Shown in pieces: positions 1,255 to 8,559 of a DNA stretch of 10,075 nucleotides; the stretch's first letter is position 1; each line of letters starts with the position of its first letter. The position numbers and the translations under genes were made by a program. The notes beneath the pieces were generated by a model. It worked only from the letters and a program-made list of their open reading frames with translations. It was not told where the DNA came from and did not search any database. Source of the stretch: a virus. Its lineage: Duplodnaviria; Heunggongvirae; Uroviricota; Caudoviricetes. The stretch lies in the IMG/VR virus record IMGVR_UViG_3300014890_000017, one strand, 5' to 3'.

Positions 1255-1449
1255 TTAATTATTCTGCTGATTTTCTTCCATCTCGGCTTCTGCTGCCAGT
1301 GATTCAATTTTGTCTGCGAATATTGCTGACAGCGTTGCAAATTCAGCATCAGTGACAGCGGGAATGGGAACAAACCTGATCCCGCTGTGTGCAAGCATGT
1401 TTGCAGTTTCAAGGCATTTCCTTAAATCTGCTGGTGATGCCCGGTTCAT
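1255..1449 (-). CDS. Hypothetical small acidic protein (64 aa), translationally coupled to the methyltransferase
   Basis: Internal ATG (MNRASPADL...) of the 1255..1569 ORF; forms an ATGA start/stop overlap with the upstream methyltransferase stop at 1446-1448. Acidic C-terminus (AEAEMEENQQNN). Ends 3 bp from the convergent integrase stop. No family recognised. Confidence 0.45.
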   Translation of the reverse strand: MNRASPADLRKCLETANMLAHSGIRFVPIPAVTDAEFATLSAIFADKIESLAAEAEMEENQQNN

Positions 1450-2096
1450 GCTGCACGCTCCCGCCCCTGGTTGTCTGTTGGTGACAGCGGAGCATTGCTG
1501 AATGCATTTGTTAATCTGGCAATATCCAACGCGTATCCAGGGTGTAGTTGCACTGCCGGGTCTTCGCACTGATTACCCCAAACATCGAAGCCATGAGACG
1601 ACTGGCGGGCGAACAGTTCAATGCGAGAAACATCGCCTAACAATTGCACAAGTTTTTCACGAGCGATATCTGGCTTTCTTGAATGCTCAAGCCGCGGTGC
1701 GGTAAATGACTGAACGATCCCTGCATTAATGCGCGTAGGTAGTTTTCCCTTTACCGCAAACAGGCAATCTTCACTATTGGCGCGAGTCATGTGCCCCATA
1801 CCCATAACCAGTTTATCTGGTTGTCGACTACCACATTTTATCCACGTGAAGCCCTTCATCGTCATCAGACGAAATCCCCAGGCTTCAACAACTTTTAGTG
1901 CTTCGAGTGGTTGTGTTGGCACCCACCACATGGCCAACAGACAGTTTTCATCGGCCAAATCCCACACAGGAAGGCGGCAGATATCCAGCACACTCATAAC
2001 CGGATATTTAAAACCGGCACCGCGATTACCATCTGCGGCTTTGTCCCGGTATACCCAGGGTGGATCTGCATAGATTAGTGTGTATTTCTTAGTCAT
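1446..2096 (-). CDS. MT-A70-family DNA N6-adenine methyltransferase (phage orphan methylase)
   Basis: Conserved DPPW motif (LIYADPPWVY) near the N-terminus, typical of MT-A70/beta-class adenine MTases. ATG at 2096 (MTKKYTLIYADPPW) preferred over the ORF-track GTG at 2108. No adjacent restriction endonuclease gene. Confidence 0.8.
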   Translation of the reverse strand: MTKKYTLIYADPPWVYRDKAADGNRGAGFKYPVMSVLDICRLPVWDLADENCLLAMWWVPTQPLEALKVVEAWGFRLMTMKGFTWIKCGSRQPDKLVMGMGHMTRANSEDCLFAVKGKLPTRINAGIVQSFTAPRLEHSRKPDIAREKLVQLLGDVSRIELFARQSSHGFDVWGNQCEDPAVQLHPGYALDIARLTNAFSNAPLSPTDNQGRERAA

Positions 2097-2388
2097 AAAC
2101 CACCCCACAACATCCTATGCCGCTATAGTCGCCACGGCGAAGGCCGTTACCTTTTGTGATACATTGGTCCCTGCGAACCGCGATCCTTGCACGCTCAACA
2201 TCACCAGAAGCAACATCCATACACTGAAGCCAAAGGTGGGCGGCAATGCGGAACTGCCCTTTTTTCTCTCTTTCAATCGCGCGTTTTTCGATCTCTATCG
2301 CCGCAGGAGTAACGGCAACAACCTTTGAAGGGCTGCGCATTGAAACCTTGTTCATGTGATATTTTTCAAGTCGGCTTAACTTTCTCAC
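2089..2388 (-). CDS. Hypothetical protein (99 aa), coupled to the downstream methyltransferase
   Basis: GTG start at 2388 preceded by GAGGG about 9 nt upstream; stop TAA at 2089-2091 overlaps the methyltransferase ATG (ATGACTAA arrangement). No family recognised. Confidence 0.45.
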   Translation of the reverse strand: MRKLSRLEKYHMNKVSMRSPSKVVAVTPAAIEIEKRAIEREKKGQFRIAAHLWLQCMDVASGDVERARIAVRRDQCITKGNGLRRGDYSGIGCCGVVYD

Positions 2389-5099: not shown

Positions 5100-5684
5100 T
5101 TATTGTTTGCTTTTTTCGTTCTGGTTGATGACAAATTCAATGTAACTTTCGATCTTTGCTTTCTCTGTTTCAGGTAACAATGCGTAGCGCGAGCGGTCAT
5201 AGTTGATAGTTGCAGGGTCGTGCGGGTGAATCAGTAGTTCATATCCGTGACGCCCGAATGCAGATGCAACATTCTCCAGGGTGGAAATGGAAACGCTGAC
5301 CTCATTGTTTAACAGGCGGCTGATTGTCACCTGGGCTACGCCGGATGCGCGGTGAAGTTTTCCCTGTGTTGAAAGGTCGCGGCTTTCGCTCATCCAGCGT
5401 TCCAGGTTGTGAGCCGCCAGCTGACCAATGTCGCTTGGTCCGACAGGCTGAAAACCCTCCTGAGAAAGCGAGCGATCGATATCAAGCCAGTTACGTGGTT
5501 TATTGGCGGCAGCTTCAATTTTTCGTGCAACCTGGTCGCCGATAACCTTCTTGCCAAGAGCCCAGCGGTTTACCAGATTTGCCTGAGTTCCAAGTTTTTC
5601 TGCCATCCGCGTCTGAACACCATTGAATTCACGGTCGATCAAGTCGTTGAGATTTTGCCTGCGGACGTCCTGGATACTTTTCAT
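5100..5684 (-). CDS. Prophage repressor candidate with two tandem XRE-type HTH domains (CI-like by position)
   Basis: 194 aa; HTH-like segments NGVQTRMAEKLGTQANLVNRWALGKK and LHRASGVAQVTISRLLNNEVSVSISTLENVASAFG; divergent from a Cro-like gene across an operator-rich intergenic region; no LexA/S24 peptidase-like motif recognised. Confidence 0.7.
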   Translation of the reverse strand: MKSIQDVRRQNLNDLIDREFNGVQTRMAEKLGTQANLVNRWALGKKVIGDQVARKIEAAANKPRNWLDIDRSLSQEGFQPVGPSDIGQLAAHNLERWMSESRDLSTQGKLHRASGVAQVTISRLLNNEVSVSISTLENVASAFGRHGYELLIHPHDPATINYDRSRYALLPETEKAKIESYIEFVINQNEKSKQ

Positions 5685-5739
5685 TTTCTGGAAAATCGCC
5701 TCATATATGAATCAGTAGATGATTCAATTTAAAGCAATA

Positions 5740-5754
5740 TTACCCAACAGGTAA
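5740..5754. promoter_or_regulatory. Operator-like palindrome TTACC-CAACA-GGTAA (divergent region)
   Basis: Perfect inverted repeat in the repressor/cro intergenic region; a degenerate adjacent site gcACC-TCATA-GGTAA lies at 5757-5771. Confidence 0.6.
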
Positions 5755-5784: not shown

Positions 5785-5813
5785 TTGTTACCTTATGGGT
5801 GAATATTTATTAT
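5785..5813 (+). promoter_or_regulatory. Candidate rightward early promoter (PR-like)
   Basis: -35 TTGTTA (5785-5790), 17-bp spacer, -10 TATTAT (5808-5813); the 5788-5802 operator lies within the spacer. Confidence 0.5.
5788..5802. promoter_or_regulatory. Operator-like palindrome TTACC-TTATG-GGTgA (one mismatch)
   Basis: Near-perfect copy of the TTACC-N5-GGTAA motif overlapping the PR-like promoter; centre 48 bp from the 5740-5754 site. Confidence 0.5.
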
Positions 5814-5838: not shown

Positions 5839-6069
5839 ATGAGCGATAACGGACATTTCGATTTCAAAAAGCACTGGCTTGCACTTACTCCGGATGAGCG
5901 TGAAGCCTTCGCACAGGAAGCCGGAACGACGAGTCACTATATCCAGACTCACTTAACAGGTAAGCGCAAAATGCCAGGTAAAGTATTGATGAATGGGCTT
6001 TTTAAAGCCTGTAAAACAAGACAATGGCTGCGCTCAAAAGCAGAACTGGCATACTTCTTCTACTCATGA
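5839..6069 (+). CDS. Cro-like small HTH regulator (Cro/CI-type, YdaS-like)
   Basis: 76 aa; first gene rightward of the repressor; segment EAFAQEAGTTSHYIQTHLTGKRKMP is HTH-like, resembling Cro/cII-type DNA-binding helices. Confidence 0.65.
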   Translation: MSDNGHFDFKKHWLALTPDEREAFAQEAGTTSHYIQTHLTGKRKMPGKVLMNGLFKACKTRQWLRSKAELAYFFYS

Positions 6070-6118: not shown

Positions 6119-6219
6119 CTATTCGTACCTCAAAGGTAATAAATAACCAAATCTGGTTGATCTTTTTTTTGTGTCAGCACAAAATGACCGTAATCCCAAT
6201 ACTAATAACAGGGCTTACC

Positions 6220-6420
6220 ATGGAAATCATTACACGTATTGATGCCGCAAAGCGCGGACTTAAACGCTACTACACCGGAAAACCATGTAAGCACGGACAT
6301 GACAGTGAACGCTGGGTTTACAACGGACACTGTGTTGAGTGCACCATGGAATCAAACCGTCGTATCAGGGCAGAGATTAAGCAGATCATGATTAATTCCT
6401 CCCCACAACATTCAAGCTGA
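6220..6420 (+). CDS. Small zinc-ribbon protein (66 aa) in the cII position
   Basis: ATG at 6220 (MEIITRIDAAKRG...) chosen over upstream TTG/ATG starts that lack an SD; Cys/His cluster CKHGH ... CVEC suggests a zinc ribbon. Function unknown. Confidence 0.5.
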   Translation: MEIITRIDAAKRGLKRYYTGKPCKHGHDSERWVYNGHCVECTMESNRRIRAEIKQIMINSSPQHSS

Positions 6421-6435
6421 TAGCGGAGATTAATC

Positions 6436-7251
6436 ATGAGCAGACATGCAACAGATTGGGCCTGGGAGACAGATCCAGGTAGCTCGTCATTAAAGCTCAT
6501 ACTGCTCTCGATGGCTGACAGAGCCGATGAATATAACCTCTGCTACCCCAGCATAGAACGCCTCGTTAAAGACACTTGCCTGAATAAAAAAACCGTGCAG
6601 GCCGGGCTTATATCGCTCATGAAAATGGGGCTTATTTCAGATACCGGAGAGAGAAAGGGAGCGACGAAAAGAGTGCGGGTTTTCTCTCTTAATATAACCA
6701 AAAACGGGAACATTAAAGGCAACCGGGAAGGGGGTAATGGACCCGAAAACGGTAATGTTACCGAAAACGGGAATATACCCAAAAACGGGATGTTGAATGA
6801 TCCCAAAAACGGGATGTTGAATGATCCCAAAAACGGGATCCAGAACCAGTCATATAACCAGTCATTTAACCAAGAGAGGGAGAGCAGGACAAAAAGCGGG
6901 GATTCTGTGCCTCATGACCCCGGCGCAAACAACGCCGTGATGAATAACTTTGTTCCTCCTGGTGGGCCAGGGCAATTAGGCAAATTTGTCATGCATGAAC
7001 AATGGCAGCCATCAGATGACTTTCTTCGGAAAAGCTCATTGCAGGGGATCTACCTGGACAGTCTGCCAACGGCACAGGAACTTGCAGAGTTCAGAATTTA
7101 CTGGATGGCTGAGGGTAAGGCATACCATCAGGCACAGTGGGAGCAGAAGCTGGCAAGGCGGCTGCAGATTAGCAGACAGAAGCAATCAACATTACCTGAT
7201 AACAACGTTCCGCACTGGAACAGCCCTGAAGCATGGGAGGATTTCTTGTGA
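6436..7251 (+). CDS. Replication initiator, lambda O-like (N-terminal HTH, internal ori iterons, DnaT-like C-terminus)
   Basis: 271 aa; GGAG SD 7 nt upstream of the ATG; N-terminal HTH-like region (SLKLILLSMADRADEYNLCYPSIERLVKDTCLNKKTVQAGL); low-complexity NG-rich linker encoded by a DNA direct-repeat array; immediately precedes and overlaps (GTGA) a lambda-P homologue. Confidence 0.75.
   Translation: MSRHATDWAWETDPGSSSLKLILLSMADRADEYNLCYPSIERLVKDTCLNKKTVQAGLISLMKMGLISDTGERKGATKRVRVFSLNITKNGNIKGNREGGNGPENGNVTENGNIPKNGMLNDPKNGMLNDPKNGIQNQSYNQSFNQERESRTKSGDSVPHDPGANNAVMNNFVPPGGPGQLGKFVMHEQWQPSDDFLRKSSLQGIYLDSLPTAQELAEFRIYWMAEGKAYHQAQWEQKLARRLQISRQKQSTLPDNNVPHWNSPEAWEDFL
6696..6850. repeat. Iteron array (putative origin of replication) inside the O-like gene
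   Basis: Six copies of the core AAAACGG(G/T)A at 6701, 6746, 6764, 6782, 6806 and 6830, including two perfect tandem 24-bp repeats CCCAAAAACGGGATGTTGAATGAT (6778-6801 and 6802-6825). Confidence 0.7.
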
Positions 7252-8033
7252 ACAACGTTTTTACCGCGATACAAAACCGTGACGGAGAAGCCCTTTCTCG
7301 CATGTCAGGTTATGAGCATCAGTACGTCAACAATGACAATGTGGTGAACATGTCAGCAGAGAGGCTTGTTGATGCCCTTTTTAAACAGCTGAAACAATTG
7401 TTTCCGGCGGCAGTGGTAACCAACCTGAAGACGCCAGAGCAGGAAGTTGCTGCAAAACAGCAGTGGATTGCTGCGTTTGCCGAAGGGGGGATCCGAACCC
7501 GTGAACAGGTTTCTGCTGGTATGCGCCACGCCCGCGCCAGTGAATCTCCGTTCTGGCCGTCGCCTGGGCAATTCATCAAGTGGTGTAAAGACAGCAAGAT
7601 GGTTCTTGGCGTCACCATTGACGATGTGATGGCGGAGTTTCACCGGTACAGCAAGGAAAAAAGTTTATATCCTGGTGGTCCCGAAAGATTCCCGTGGCGA
7701 CATCCGGTTATGTACTGGGTCGTATGTGATACCCGCCGTGCAATGTATCAGCGCCAGCTTAGCGAGATTGAGGTTGAGAAACACGCGCGCAGGCTGCTCG
7801 ATGATTGGGCGAAAAAGGTGGCTTCCGGACAGCAGATACCCGATCCGGTGATCAGCATACAGGCAAAGCCAGAGCCCATGAGTACGCCTCCGGACACAGG
7901 GAGAGATGTTTACCATCCACCAGGGCAAAGTTTCGGGTGCATGCCTAACGCCGCCACCCTGGGGGGAATAACACCGGCGCAGTGGCTGATGGAGGAATAC
8001 AGGCGAGGAAAGGCGGCAGGATTTATCAAGTAA
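7248..8033 (+). CDS. Replication protein P homologue (DnaB helicase loader)
   Basis: Segment WIAAFAEGGIRTREQVSAGMRHARASESPFWPSPGQFIKWCKD aligns from memory with lambda P (WVLAFRENGITTMEQVNAGMRVARRQNRPFLPSPGQFVAWCRE). GTG at 7248 with GGAGG 7 nt upstream preferred over the ORF-track ATG at 7233; GTGA overlap with the O-like stop. Confidence 0.85.
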   Translation: MNNVFTAIQNRDGEALSRMSGYEHQYVNNDNVVNMSAERLVDALFKQLKQLFPAAVVTNLKTPEQEVAAKQQWIAAFAEGGIRTREQVSAGMRHARASESPFWPSPGQFIKWCKDSKMVLGVTIDDVMAEFHRYSKEKSLYPGGPERFPWRHPVMYWVVCDTRRAMYQRQLSEIEVEKHARRLLDDWAKKVASGQQIPDPVISIQAKPEPMSTPPDTGRDVYHPPGQSFGCMPNAATLGGITPAQWLMEEYRRGKAAGFIK

Positions 8034-8070: not shown

Positions 8071-8085
8071 TTACCTGGAAGGTAA
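8071..8085. promoter_or_regulatory. Operator-like palindrome TTACC-TGGAA-GGTAA (distal promoter, upstream site)
   Basis: Perfect inverted repeat; centre is 62 bp from the 8133-8147 site, the same spacing as the leftward-promoter pair. Confidence 0.55.
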
Positions 8086-8104
8086 TAAAATATTCTAATC
8101 TCTA

Positions 8105-8133
8105 TTGATTTCATGTCTTATGTGGTTTTTAAT
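8105..8133 (+). promoter_or_regulatory. Candidate promoter for the distal rightward operon
   Basis: -35 TTGATT (8105-8110), 17-bp spacer, -10 TTTAAT (8128-8133); operators lie upstream of the -35 and across the -10/+1. Confidence 0.45.
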
Positions 8134-8498: not shown

Positions 8499-8559
8499 AT
8501 CGACGATCTATTTAGTTATCAATGTAATCAATAAGTTATGTGGATAAGCGAGGGTAAAG

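What the first reader, a model, noticed from the sequence alone, without database searches (positions are those of the whole stretch)
6696..6850. Iteron array embedded in the O-like initiator gene: likely origin of replication
Six copies of AAAACGG(G/T)A at 18-24 bp spacing, including two perfect tandem 24-bp repeats, sit in the linker between the N-terminal DNA-binding domain and the C-terminal domain of the initiator. The repeats also produce the repetitive peptide PKNGMLNDPKNGMLND. This mirrors ori-lambda inside the O gene, with an unrelated iteron sequence.
Basis: partly seen in the sequence, partly recalled or inferred. Interest (0 to 1): 0.5.

Follow-up and report, generated by a model that had tools for sequence, protein, structure and literature searches.

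The report
Phage replication origin inside initiator gene
The repeats are real and are very probably the binding sites that mark the replication origin of a phiV10-type E. coli prophage, placed inside its own initiator gene as in phage lambda; this is an ordinary arrangement, not annotated in the related records I inspected.

Summary
AAAACGGKA occurs six times in the window, all between 6701 and 6838 (0 of 200 shuffles reach six). The start-to-start spacing is 45, 18, 18, 24, 24 bp, so the first copy lies apart from the rest.

The copies fall in the linker of a 271-aa initiator. That protein has an N-terminal winged helix (Pfam HTH_36) and a C-terminal DnaT-like domain, and a lambda-P-family gene follows it. 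The window is a phiV10/Uetakevirus-type prophage beside guaA.

The decisive evidence is comparative:
- In 76 of 77 homologous loci from diverse Proteobacteria, the densest direct-repeat cluster of the locus sits just after the winged-helix coding region.
- In 47 of 59 arrays some spacings are not multiples of three, so the repeat is kept as DNA and not as peptide.
- Against a Superficieibacter homologue, third-codon identity is 37/38 in the array and 57% elsewhere.

Each iteron is about 18 bp, a CC-N6-GG core with an A-tract centre. It resembles the lambda iterons, so "unrelated sequence" is not accurate.

I also found three conserved roughly 12-bp GAAYC repeats plus a purine-rich tract directly downstream. 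These may be the unwinding region.

Verdict: a lambda-type intragenic origin, a new member of a known kind. No replication experiment exists.

The parts
6436..7251 (+). Initiator gene (271 aa): N-terminal winged helix, repeat-encoded linker, C-terminal DnaT-like domain
   Evidence: ORF. Pfam HTH_36 E 1.8e-10 and DnaT E 1.2e-15. PHROG 1032 'replication initiation protein' E 2.6e-108. RefSeq annotates the same CDS in E. coli JNE25-001.
6436..6696 (+). Coding region of the winged-helix DNA-binding domain (aa 1-87), the presumed iteron reader
   Evidence: AlphaFold2 on a 65-sequence alignment: mean pLDDT 87.3, elements H-H-H-H then a beta hairpin, disordered from aa 90. Foldseek finds only generic winged-helix matches, best E 2e-3.
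6694..6711 (+). Iteron 1 (ATAACCAAAAACGGGAAC), the distal copy, 45 bp before iteron 2
   Evidence: The same '45-46 bp, then 17/17, then 22-24' layout recurs in homologues L037, L044, L057, L058, L060 and L086.
6739..6756 (+). Iteron 2 (GGACCCGAAAACGGTAAT)
6757..6774 (+). Iteron 3 (GTTACCGAAAACGGGAAT), directly abutting iterons 2 and 4
6775..6792 (+). Iteron 4 (ATACCCAAAAACGGGATG)
6799..6816 (+). Iteron 5 (GATCCCAAAAACGGGATG), preceded by the 6-bp spacer TTGAAT
   Evidence: A GATC site lies at 6799.
6823..6840 (+). Iteron 6 (GATCCCAAAAACGGGATC), with perfect 6-bp inverted arms around AAAAAC
   Evidence: GATC sites lie at 6823 and 6837.
6843..6878 (+). Three roughly 12-bp repeats (GAACCAGTCATA / TAACCAGTCATT / TAACCAAGAGAG); candidate unwinding or helicase-entry element
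   Evidence: Tandem Repeats Finder reports 6844-6872 with period 12. In the family, 63 of 77 loci have at least three [GT]AAYC units chained at 11-13 bp just after the last iteron, against 0 of 1628 control windows. In 54 of those 63 loci the copies are read in two reading frames. The function is inferred.
6868..6903 (+). Purine-rich tract (83% A+G on the + strand)
   Evidence: It ties for the most purine-rich 36-nt stretch of the window, 99.9th percentile. AT skew reaches 0.56 at 6840-6899. The lambda A+T-rich region is likewise purine-rich on one strand (sequence).
6976..7230 (+). Coding region of the DnaT-like C-terminal domain (aa 181-265)
   Evidence: phmmer against the PDB: DnaT/primosomal protein 1 C-terminal domain, E 6e-21 to 7e-19 (9zbt, 6aep, 4ou6, 4ou7, 2ru8, 9zbu).
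7233..8033 (+). Lambda-P-family helicase loader gene (RefSeq starts it at the GTG at 7248)
   Evidence: PF06992 E 1.5e-56. PHROG 109 'P-like helicase loader'. BLASTP to lambda P: 31% identity, E 2e-35. RefSeq annotation.
5785..5813 (+). Sigma-70-like promoter upstream of the cro-like gene; possible pR analogue reading through the origin (weak)
   Evidence: Consensus scan, 9 of 12 matches, but the number of such sites in the region is at chance level. Its position between the divergent repressor (5100-5684, - strand) and the cro-like gene (5839-6069) matches the phiV10 and lambda layout.

Best explanation
Bases 6694-6840 carry six roughly 18-bp iterons. Each has an invariant CC-N6-GG core with an A-tract centre and partly palindromic arms. 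I propose they are the binding sites of the winged-helix N-terminal domain of the protein whose linker they encode. Together with the three 12-bp repeats and the purine-rich tract directly downstream (6843-6903), they would form the vegetative replication origin of this phiV10-type prophage.

Proposed mechanism:
1. After derepression, rightward transcription produces the initiator and the P-like protein. The gene order is shown; the transcription is inferred.
2. Initiator molecules, probably dimers, fill the back-to-back iterons 2-4 and the spaced iterons 5-6 and build an O-some-like complex (inferred).
3. This complex strains and opens the adjacent 12-mer/purine-rich segment (inferred).
4. 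The DnaT-like C-terminal domain holds the single strand, docks the P-like protein carrying host DnaB, or does both (inferred from homology to DnaT and lambda P).

Because the linker is disordered, whole 8-aa (24-bp) units can be gained or lost. Iteron number therefore varies between strains.
For: **In this window**
- The repeats are non-random and confined to one place. That place is the densest direct-repeat cluster of the window.
- The same scan picks ori-lambda in the lambda control locus.
- The gene is a replication initiator, and a lambda-P homologue follows it.
- The N-terminal domain gives a confident winged-helix model, disordered from aa 90.

**Across 77 homologous loci with complete ORFs**
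- The loci come from Gamma-, Beta- and Alphaproteobacteria and from Desulfovibrionaceae. In 76 of them the densest 240-bp repeat window starts 90-360 nt after the initiator ATG; chance is about 7% per locus.
- 59 loci have at least four copies of a 10-mer. In 47 of these some spacings are not multiples of three (17, 22 or 23 bp), so the copies are read in different frames.
- The commonest layout, found in 22 of 48 loci, is two close spacings (17-18 bp) followed by two wide ones (22-24 bp). The window has the same layout.
- Iteron sequence is uniform within a locus and differs between loci. The subfamily with a shortened wing has the most divergent iterons.

**Other lines**
- Against Superficieibacter L013, third-codon identity is 37/38 in iterons 3-6 plus the 12-mers, and 120/210 elsewhere (Fisher p = 2e-7).
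- Among 120 near-identical E. coli proteins, the linker carries about 5 to 11 iteron-encoding units. This parallels four iterons in lambda against six in Stx phages (PMC7466680).
- The window iterons resemble the lambda iterons.
- Published HHpred places the lambda O N-terminus in HTH_36 (PMC5509034).
Against: - There is no experimental evidence for replication, binding or unwinding in this phage group. I found none in the open-access library searched, and the phiV10 RefSeq record shows no origin feature in the stretch inspected.
- There is no clear A+T-rich unwinding element. The 12-mer region is about 67% A+T over 30 bp, and richer stretches exist elsewhere in the gene and between genes. The family average rises only from 0.54 to 0.61-0.66.
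- In this window all six copies are in one reading frame, so the window alone cannot separate a DNA repeat from a peptide repeat.
- Dyad symmetry is strong only in iterons 5 and 6.
- The high third-codon identity to L013 could also come from a recent recombination patch. Copies within an array are also not independent observations.
- My own profile comparison with lambda O was not significant (hhalign probability 4%).
Confidence: 0.8

Rival explanations
1. The iterons are true binding sites of the initiator, but they serve regulation (autorepression, copy control or handcuffing, or titration) and replication starts elsewhere in the phage genome.
For: Iterons in plasmids have both roles (established knowledge). 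There is no strong A+T-rich tract next to the array. More A+T-rich intergenic stretches exist at 8084-8123 and 5703-5742.
Against: No other repeat cluster or iteron-like site exists in the window. The array keeps a fixed polarity and a conserved downstream 12-mer module in 63 of 77 loci, as expected for an origin with a defined opening side. In lambda and Stx phages the equivalent intragenic array is the origin (PMC7466680).
Confidence: 0.1
2. The repeat matters only at the protein level: a low-complexity [PT][KE]NG linker that grew by slippage, with no role for the DNA sequence.
For: In the window all copies are in frame and encode a regular peptide. The linker is predicted to be disordered. 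Copy number drifts between strains.
Against: In 47 of 59 homologous arrays the same DNA motif is read in two or three frames. Third-codon positions are almost invariant against L013 (37/38 against 57% elsewhere). The CC-N6-GG palindromic form is a property of DNA, not of a peptide.
Confidence: 0.05
3. The array is a neutral by-product of recombination at a module boundary, where N- and C-terminal domains are shuffled. It is kept by concerted evolution and not by selection for binding.
For: The C-terminal domains and partner genes are highly mosaic. Only 3 of 77 loci have a DnaT domain. Partner genes include DnaB-like (10), lambda-P (9) and IstB/DnaC-like (3) among 55 scored. Unit number is unstable.
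Against: Neutral repeats would not keep the same core, polarity, two-tier spacing and distance from the winged helix across Alpha-, Beta- and Gammaproteobacteria and Desulfovibrionaceae.
Confidence: 0.05

Closest known systems
ori-lambda inside gene O of phage lambda, with the six-iteron origins of Stx phages P27 and 933W
   Same: - The iteron array lies inside the initiator gene, between the DNA-binding and partner-binding domains.
- Iterons are 18 bp with an A-tract centre and C-rich/G-rich arms (lambda ATCCCTCAAAACGAGGGA; here GATCCCAAAAACGGGATC).
- Spacing is 20-24 bp in lambda and 18-24 bp here.
- A P-family helicase loader gene follows the initiator gene.
- A purine-rich tract follows the array.
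- Iteron number varies between relatives.

   Different: - The initiator is Pfam HTH_36, not Phage_rep_O. BLASTP to lambda O shows no significant similarity.
- The two half-sites are 3 bp closer together than in lambda.
- The C-terminal domain is DnaT-like, not the lambda O C-terminal domain.
- Three 12-bp repeats stand where lambda has its roughly 40-bp A+T-rich tract.
- There are six iterons, three of them back-to-back.
DopC/DopE, the pair described by Brezellec et al. 2017 (PMC5509034) as domesticated lambda O/P-like genes
   Same: The two-gene architecture is the same: an HTH_36 N-terminus plus a DnaT C-terminal motif, followed by a P-family protein.
   Different: The authors report no iteron-like sequences in dopC and place chromosomal initiation elsewhere. 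Here the gene sits in a phiV10-type prophage and carries a full iteron array.
Iteron origins of plasmids (RK2, F, pPS10) and oriC, which have 13-mer repeats in the unwinding element
   Same: A set of initiator-binding repeats lies next to three or four short tandem repeats of about 12-13 bp, where the duplex opens and where initiators can bind single strands (established knowledge; PMC4081077 was listed).
   Different: Those origins lie outside the rep gene and their Rep proteins belong to other families. No DnaA box lies near this array; the only one in the window is at 8539 and is at chance level. The 12-mers here are only moderately A+T-rich.

Membership tests
Lambda-type intragenic phage origin (works like ori-lambda) | An array of at least four direct repeats inside the initiator gene, between its two domains | tested here: met
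   Six copies at 6694-6840, encoding about aa 87-135, between HTH_36 (aa 18-67) and DnaT (aa 184-252).
Lambda-type intragenic phage origin (works like ori-lambda) | The repeats are kept as DNA, independently of the reading frame | tested here: met
   47 of 59 homologous arrays have spacings that are not multiples of three. Third-codon identity to L013 is 37/38 against 57% elsewhere. The window alone cannot show this, because its copies are all in one frame.
Lambda-type intragenic phage origin (works like ori-lambda) | An A+T-rich unwinding region directly downstream of the last iteron | tested here: inconclusive
   The window reaches about 67% A+T over 30 bp at 6844-6873, which is not among the richest stretches. 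The family mean rises from 0.54 to 0.61-0.66. A conserved 12-mer triple and a purine-rich tract are present instead.
Lambda-type intragenic phage origin (works like ori-lambda) | A helicase loader or helicase gene immediately downstream of the initiator gene | tested here: met
   7233-8033 is PF06992, E 1.5e-56, with 31% identity to lambda P.
Lambda-type intragenic phage origin (works like ori-lambda) | The initiator binds the iterons, and the fragment replicates autonomously when the initiator and loader are supplied | not testable with these tools
   This needs EMSA or footprinting and a plasmid replication assay.
Pfam Phage_rep_O (PF04492), the lambda O protein family | A sequence match to the family model above its threshold | tested here: not met
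   The window protein matches only HTH_36 and DnaT, whereas lambda O matches PF04492 at E 5.7e-36. BLASTP shows no significant alignment. hhalign gives probability 4%, although the helix-3/helix-4/wing region aligns in a plausible register. Published HHpred links the lambda O N-terminus to HTH_36 (PMC5509034).
Pfam HTH_36 (PF13730) winged-helix initiators | A match above the gathering score and a winged-helix fold | tested here: met
   40.9 bits against a cutoff of 25. AlphaFold2 pLDDT 87.3 with helices followed by a beta-hairpin wing. All 77 homologues match HTH_36.
DnaT C-terminal single-strand-binding domain (PF17948) | A sequence match to DnaT C-terminal domains of solved structure | tested here: met
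   Pfam 57.5 bits against a cutoff of 25. PDB matches at E about 1e-21 to 1e-19 to 9zbt, 6aep, 4ou6, 4ou7, 2ru8 and 9zbu over aa 180-265. Single-strand binding itself was not tested.

The most novel reading that the evidence does not exclude
The three roughly 12-bp GAAYC repeats just after the last iteron (family consensus GAAYCTAYCAAT) may be a distinct origin element that I did not find described. They are conserved across HTH_36 phage initiators of Alpha-, Beta- and Gammaproteobacteria and Desulfovibrionaceae. That conservation does not depend on the iteron sequence, the C-terminal domain or the helicase partner, and the copies are read in two frames. They could be the site where the duplex opens and where the initiator or the helicase engages single-stranded DNA, comparable to the 13-mers of oriC and RK2. 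The fixed two-tier iteron spacing (17-18 bp, then 22-24 bp) would set the geometry that directs opening to that side.
Probability: 0.35. Interest if true: 0.6.

Novelty: new member of a known kind. Interest (0 to 1): 0.4.

Why it matters
It gives a concrete, testable origin for the phiV10/Uetakevirus-type prophages. A close match to the initiator and P-like genes occurs in 537 of 5426 complete E. coli genomes, and the phage and RefSeq records I inspected carry no origin feature there.

It also shows that putting the origin in the initiator's linker extends well beyond lambda-O-family proteins, to a broad HTH_36 family paired with P-like, DnaB-like or DnaC-like partners.

The family data yield a reusable signature for annotating such origins: a winged helix, then close-close-wide-wide CC-N6-GG iterons, then three GAAYC 12-mers. 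They also point to a conserved element next to the iterons whose role is open.

For a specialist the main conclusion is expected and not surprising.

Tried and rejected
- **Literature.** Searches for phiV10 or epsilon15 with origin or iteron terms, and for the repeat sequences themselves, found nothing relevant. ACCGAAAACGGT only retrieved papillomavirus E2-site papers, which I take as coincidence. The epsilon15 genome paper could not be opened under the PMC id I tried.
- **Related-locus scan.** The search for related loci with the 10-sequence alignment failed because no stretch was conserved enough. A 5-sequence alignment worked.
- **Scripts.** My first repeat scan timed out and was rewritten. 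In one search the window itself was dropped because an alignment record with the same name overwrote it (diagnosed). The family counts therefore exclude the window; its layout comes.
- **Homology to lambda O.** The test by BLASTP and hhalign was not significant.
- **Fold search.** The winged-helix model gave only generic MarR/ArsR/TFE-like matches, with two plasmid Rep N-terminal domains far down the list. No specific structural relative emerged.
- **DnaA boxes.** Only one lies in the window, at 8539, which is chance level.
- **Promoter and terminator scans.** Site counts were at chance level. The minus-strand 'terminators' at 6786-6829 are simply the palindromic iterons followed by the T-run.
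- **Minus-strand ORF.** The ORF at 6543-6830 (95 aa) looks like a by-product of the repeats. I did not test it separately.
- **Protein-iteron covariation.** I considered a formal test and rejected it as non-discriminating, because the two are physically linked and co-inherited. I report only the qualitative pattern.

Full report
**1. The observation**

The motif AAAACGGKA occurs six times in the 10,075-bp window. All copies are on the + strand, at 6701, 6746, 6764, 6782, 6806 and 6830. The chance expectation is 0.18, and none of 200 dinucleotide-preserving shuffles reaches six.

Start-to-start spacing is 45, 18, 18, 24, 24 bp. Tandem Repeats Finder reports a perfect 24-bp repeat at 6778-6839 (2.6 copies).

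A longer pattern with two mismatches allowed finds no convincing copy elsewhere in the window. The repetitive peptide PKNGMLNDPKNGMLND is present.

**2. Context**

The window is a prophage of the phiV10 (Uetakevirus) type.
- The initiator and P-like genes are 97-99% identical to the best-matching phiV10-type records, such as phiV10, EC.W1-9, phiv142-3 and PAS61.
- A close match occurs in 537 of 5426 complete E. coli genomes.
- In strain JNE25-001 the element sits next to guaA.
- The gene order is integrase, methyltransferase, RecT, nuclease, repressor (minus strand), a cro-like gene, a small ORF, the initiator, the P-like gene and a DUF1064 gene.
- None of the records I inspected carries an origin feature in the stretch shown.

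**3. The protein around the repeats**

ORF 6436-7251 (271 aa) has three parts.
- *N-terminus.* It matches Pfam HTH_36 at aa 18-67. AlphaFold2 on a 65-sequence alignment models a winged helix: four helices and a beta hairpin, mean pLDDT 87.3, with disorder starting at residue 90. A fold search returns only generic winged-helix proteins.
- *C-terminus.* It matches Pfam DnaT at aa 184-252. It is homologous to the solved DnaT C-terminal domain at E about 1e-21.
- *Linker.* The repeats encode roughly aa 87-135.

The protein is not a member of Pfam Phage_rep_O, which lambda O matches at E 5.7e-36. BLASTP and hhalign against lambda O are not significant. A published HHpred analysis does assign the lambda O N-terminus to HTH_36 (PMC5509034).

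The next gene, 7233-8033, is a clear lambda-P homologue: PF06992 at E 1.5e-56 and 31% identity to lambda P.

**4. DNA element or peptide repeat?**

In this window all spacings are multiples of three, so the window alone cannot decide. I therefore collected homologues of the N-terminal domain.
- Nine diverse phages came from GenBank.
- 74 loci came from one genome per species. They span Enterobacterales, Vibrio, Pseudoalteromonas, Acinetobacter, Marinomonas, Betaproteobacteria, Sphingobium, Roseibium and Desulfovibrionaceae.

Results:
- 77 loci have a complete ORF. In 76 of them the densest 240-bp cluster of direct repeats in the whole 3-4-kb locus begins 90-360 nt after the initiator ATG. Chance is about 7% per locus.
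- The same scan picks the annotated ori-lambda iterons in a lambda control locus.
- 59 loci have at least four copies of a 10-mer. In 47 of these some spacings are 17, 22 or 23 bp, so the same DNA motif is read in different reading frames.
- Spacings cluster at 17-18 bp and at 22-24 bp.
- The commonest layout is two close spacings followed by two wide ones, in 22 of 48 loci scored. Several loci also have an extra copy 45-46 bp upstream. The window has exactly this layout: 45, 18, 18, 24, 24.
- Against the closest non-E. coli homologue (Superficieibacter, L013), third-codon positions are identical at 37 of 38 sites across iterons 3-6 and the 12-mers. Elsewhere in the gene the figure is 120 of 210 (Fisher p = 2e-7). 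A recombination patch could contribute to this, and the repeat copies are not independent observations.

Taken together, the array is conserved as DNA, with fixed geometry, and is tied to the winged-helix domain.

**5. Anatomy of the iterons**

Aligned across loci, the unit is about 18-20 bp. It has an invariant CC-N6-GG core, an A-rich centre and partly palindromic arms. The family consensus is roughly AGTcCCAAaAacGGgACT.

In the window the six units are 6694-6711, 6739-6756, 6757-6774, 6775-6792, 6799-6816 and 6823-6840.
- Units 2-4 abut back-to-back.
- Units 4-6 are separated by the spacer TTGAAT.
- Unit 6 (GATCCCAAAAACGGGATC) has perfect 6-bp inverted arms and unit 5 has 5 of 6. The others are weaker (read).

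The lambda iterons (ATCCCTCAAAACGAGGGA and variants, spacing 20/24/23) have the same arms and A-tract, with half-sites 3 bp further apart.

Iteron sequence is uniform within a locus and differs between loci. The subfamily whose wing is four residues shorter has the most divergent iterons. This fits recognition by the N-terminal domain, but it is not an independent test, because protein and sites are co-inherited.

**6. What lies beside the array**

There is no strongly A+T-rich tract. The 30 bp after the array are about 67% A+T, and richer stretches exist elsewhere. Two other features are present instead.
- *A triple of ~12-bp repeats.* 6843-6878 holds GAACCAGTCATA, TAACCAGTCATT and TAACCAAGAGAG.
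  - In the family, 63 of 77 loci have at least three [GT]AAYC units chained at 11-13 bp just after the last iteron, against 0 of 1628 control windows.
  - In 54 of those 63 loci the copies are read in two frames.
  - The positions not fixed by the search pattern are also conserved (T6 0.76, C9 0.68, A10 0.92).
- *A purine-rich tract.* 6868-6903 is 83% purine and ties for the most purine-rich stretch of the window. This recalls the purine-rich strand of lambda's A+T-rich region.

The 12-mer triple is conserved whatever the iteron sequence, C-terminal domain or downstream partner.
- C-terminal domain: only 3 of 77 loci have a DnaT domain.
- Downstream partner: DnaB-like in 10, lambda-P in 9 and IstB/DnaC-like in 3 of 55 scored.

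Mean A+T across the family rises from 0.54 to 0.61-0.66 in this segment. I read it as the likely opening or helicase-entry side of the origin. This is inference.

**7. Mechanism proposed**

*Shown:* the gene order, the domains, the array and its conservation as DNA.

*Inferred by analogy with lambda and Stx phages* (PMC7466680):
1. The initiator, probably as a dimer, binds the iterons through its winged helix.
2. The resulting complex strains the adjacent 12-mer/purine segment.
3. The DnaT-like domain binds the exposed single strand, docks the P-like protein carrying host DnaB, or does both.

The disordered linker tolerates gain and loss of 8-aa units. This explains about 5 to 11 iteron-encoding units among 120 near-identical E. 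coli proteins (7 is commonest and the window has 6). It parallels four iterons in lambda against six in Stx phages.

**8. Rivals**

- *A purely peptide-level repeat.* Contradicted by the frame data and the third-codon data.
- *A neutral recombination by-product.* Does not explain conserved core, polarity and spacing across classes of bacteria.
- *Binding sites that only regulate, with initiation elsewhere.* This cannot be excluded without experiments. It is less economical, because there is no other repeat cluster and the array has a conserved, polar downstream module.

**9. Comparison with known systems, and novelty**

It works like ori-lambda. It is not a member of the lambda O protein family by Pfam criteria. 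Its two-gene architecture (HTH_36 plus DnaT C-terminal domain, followed by a P-like gene) is the one described for the domesticated DopC/DopE pair, which was reported to lack iterons. Here the phage form carries a full array.

I found no description of an origin for phiV10-type phages in the open-access library. That library omits most subscription journals, including the original phiV10 and epsilon15 genome papers.

I rate the finding a new member of a known kind. The main conclusion is expected by specialists. The conserved 12-mer triple and the two-tier spacing are the parts that might be new.

**10. Verdict**

- Confidence that this is the initiator-bound origin: about 0.8.
- Interest: 0.4.

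Noticed in passing
window 6843-6878; homologous loci L004-L086, just after the last iteron: Three tandem repeats of about 12 bp starting [GT]AAYC (family consensus GAAYCTAYCAAT) follow the iteron array in 63 of 77 homologous loci, against 0 of 1628 control windows. In 54 of those 63 loci they are read in two frames. They are conserved whatever the iteron sequence, C-terminal domain or helicase partner. They may be the unwinding or helicase-entry element.
   Followed up: partly
window 6739-6840; loci L013-L086: The iteron arrays share a two-tier geometry: two or three units at 17-18 bp (back-to-back), then two or three at 22-24 bp with a conserved TTGAAY spacer, often with one extra unit 45-46 bp upstream. 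The pattern close-close-wide-wide occurs in 22 of 48 loci scored.
   Followed up: partly
window 6644-6680 and 6868-6903: Two purine-rich tracts (83% A+G on the + strand, top 0.1% of the window) lie close to each side of the iteron array.
   Followed up: partly
window 6799, 6823, 6837: Three GATC (Dam) sites fall within 42 bp, inside iterons 5 and 6; the window average is about one per 280 bp. Two of them come from the duplicated unit. A link to Dam/SeqA control is conceivable, and the prophage also encodes an MT-A70 methyltransferase (1446-2108, minus strand).
   Followed up: no
window 6723-6732: A degenerate CC-N6-GG site (CCGGGAAGGG) lies in the 45-bp gap between iterons 1 and 2. It could be a decayed seventh iteron.
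   Followed up: no
proteins P0001-P0120 (E. coli homologues of window 6436-7251): Protein lengths range from 279 to 311 aa among these 120 proteins (263 aa in phage BP9 and 275 aa in phiV10), through gain or loss of whole repeat units. This gives about 5 to 11 iteron-encoding units; 7 is the commonest and the window has 6. phiV10 also has one extra 12-mer unit (QNQSYNQSYNQSF).
   Followed up: yes
L004 (Edwardsiella phage GF-2) 1501-2343, compared with L087 (lambda): The GF-2 initiator joins an HTH_36 N-terminus, with iterons and 12-mers, to a C-terminal part that reads like lambda O (RPDAAIQRGTKWGT against lambda KPDAAIQSGSKWGT). A P gene follows. This looks like domain shuffling at the origin/linker boundary.
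   Followed up: partly
L002 = PP488543.1 133437-138010 (Escherichia phage BP9, filed as Vequintavirus, 138 kb): A phiV10-type repressor, initiator and P-like module (97% identical to the window) sits at the end of a record classified as a large lytic Vequintavirus. This looks like an assembly chimera or a contaminating prophage sequence.
   Followed up: no
KP869108.1 and KP869107.1 (O157 typing phages 10 and 9), hits H9, H10, H38, H39: In these records the initiator gene is split. The N-terminal 90 codons lie near the start of the record, and the part from about nucleotide 285-301 onward lies far away (at the record end in phage 10). The break is at the iteron array. It may be an assembly break at the repeats or an arbitrary linearisation point.
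   Followed up: no
window 6436-8033, compared with PMC5509034: The pair 'HTH_36 + DnaT C-terminal domain' followed by a P-like protein is the architecture reported for the domesticated DopC/DopE genes of Cellvibrionales and Oceanospirillales. The phiV10-type phages carry it with an intact iteron array. The DnaT-domain fusion may therefore predate domestication.
   Followed up: partly
window 6743-6754 and 6761-6772: ACCGAAAACGG(T/G) matches the papillomavirus E2 binding-site form ACCG-N4-CGGT. A literature search on the sequence returned only HPV papers. I take this as coincidence.
   Followed up: no
window 6157-6420 (+): A small ORF sits in the position of lambda cII. It matches PHROG 1081 (unknown function, E 1.9e-42) and has a Cys/His-rich stretch (CKHGHDSERWVYNGHCVEC). 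It has no Pfam match.
   Followed up: no
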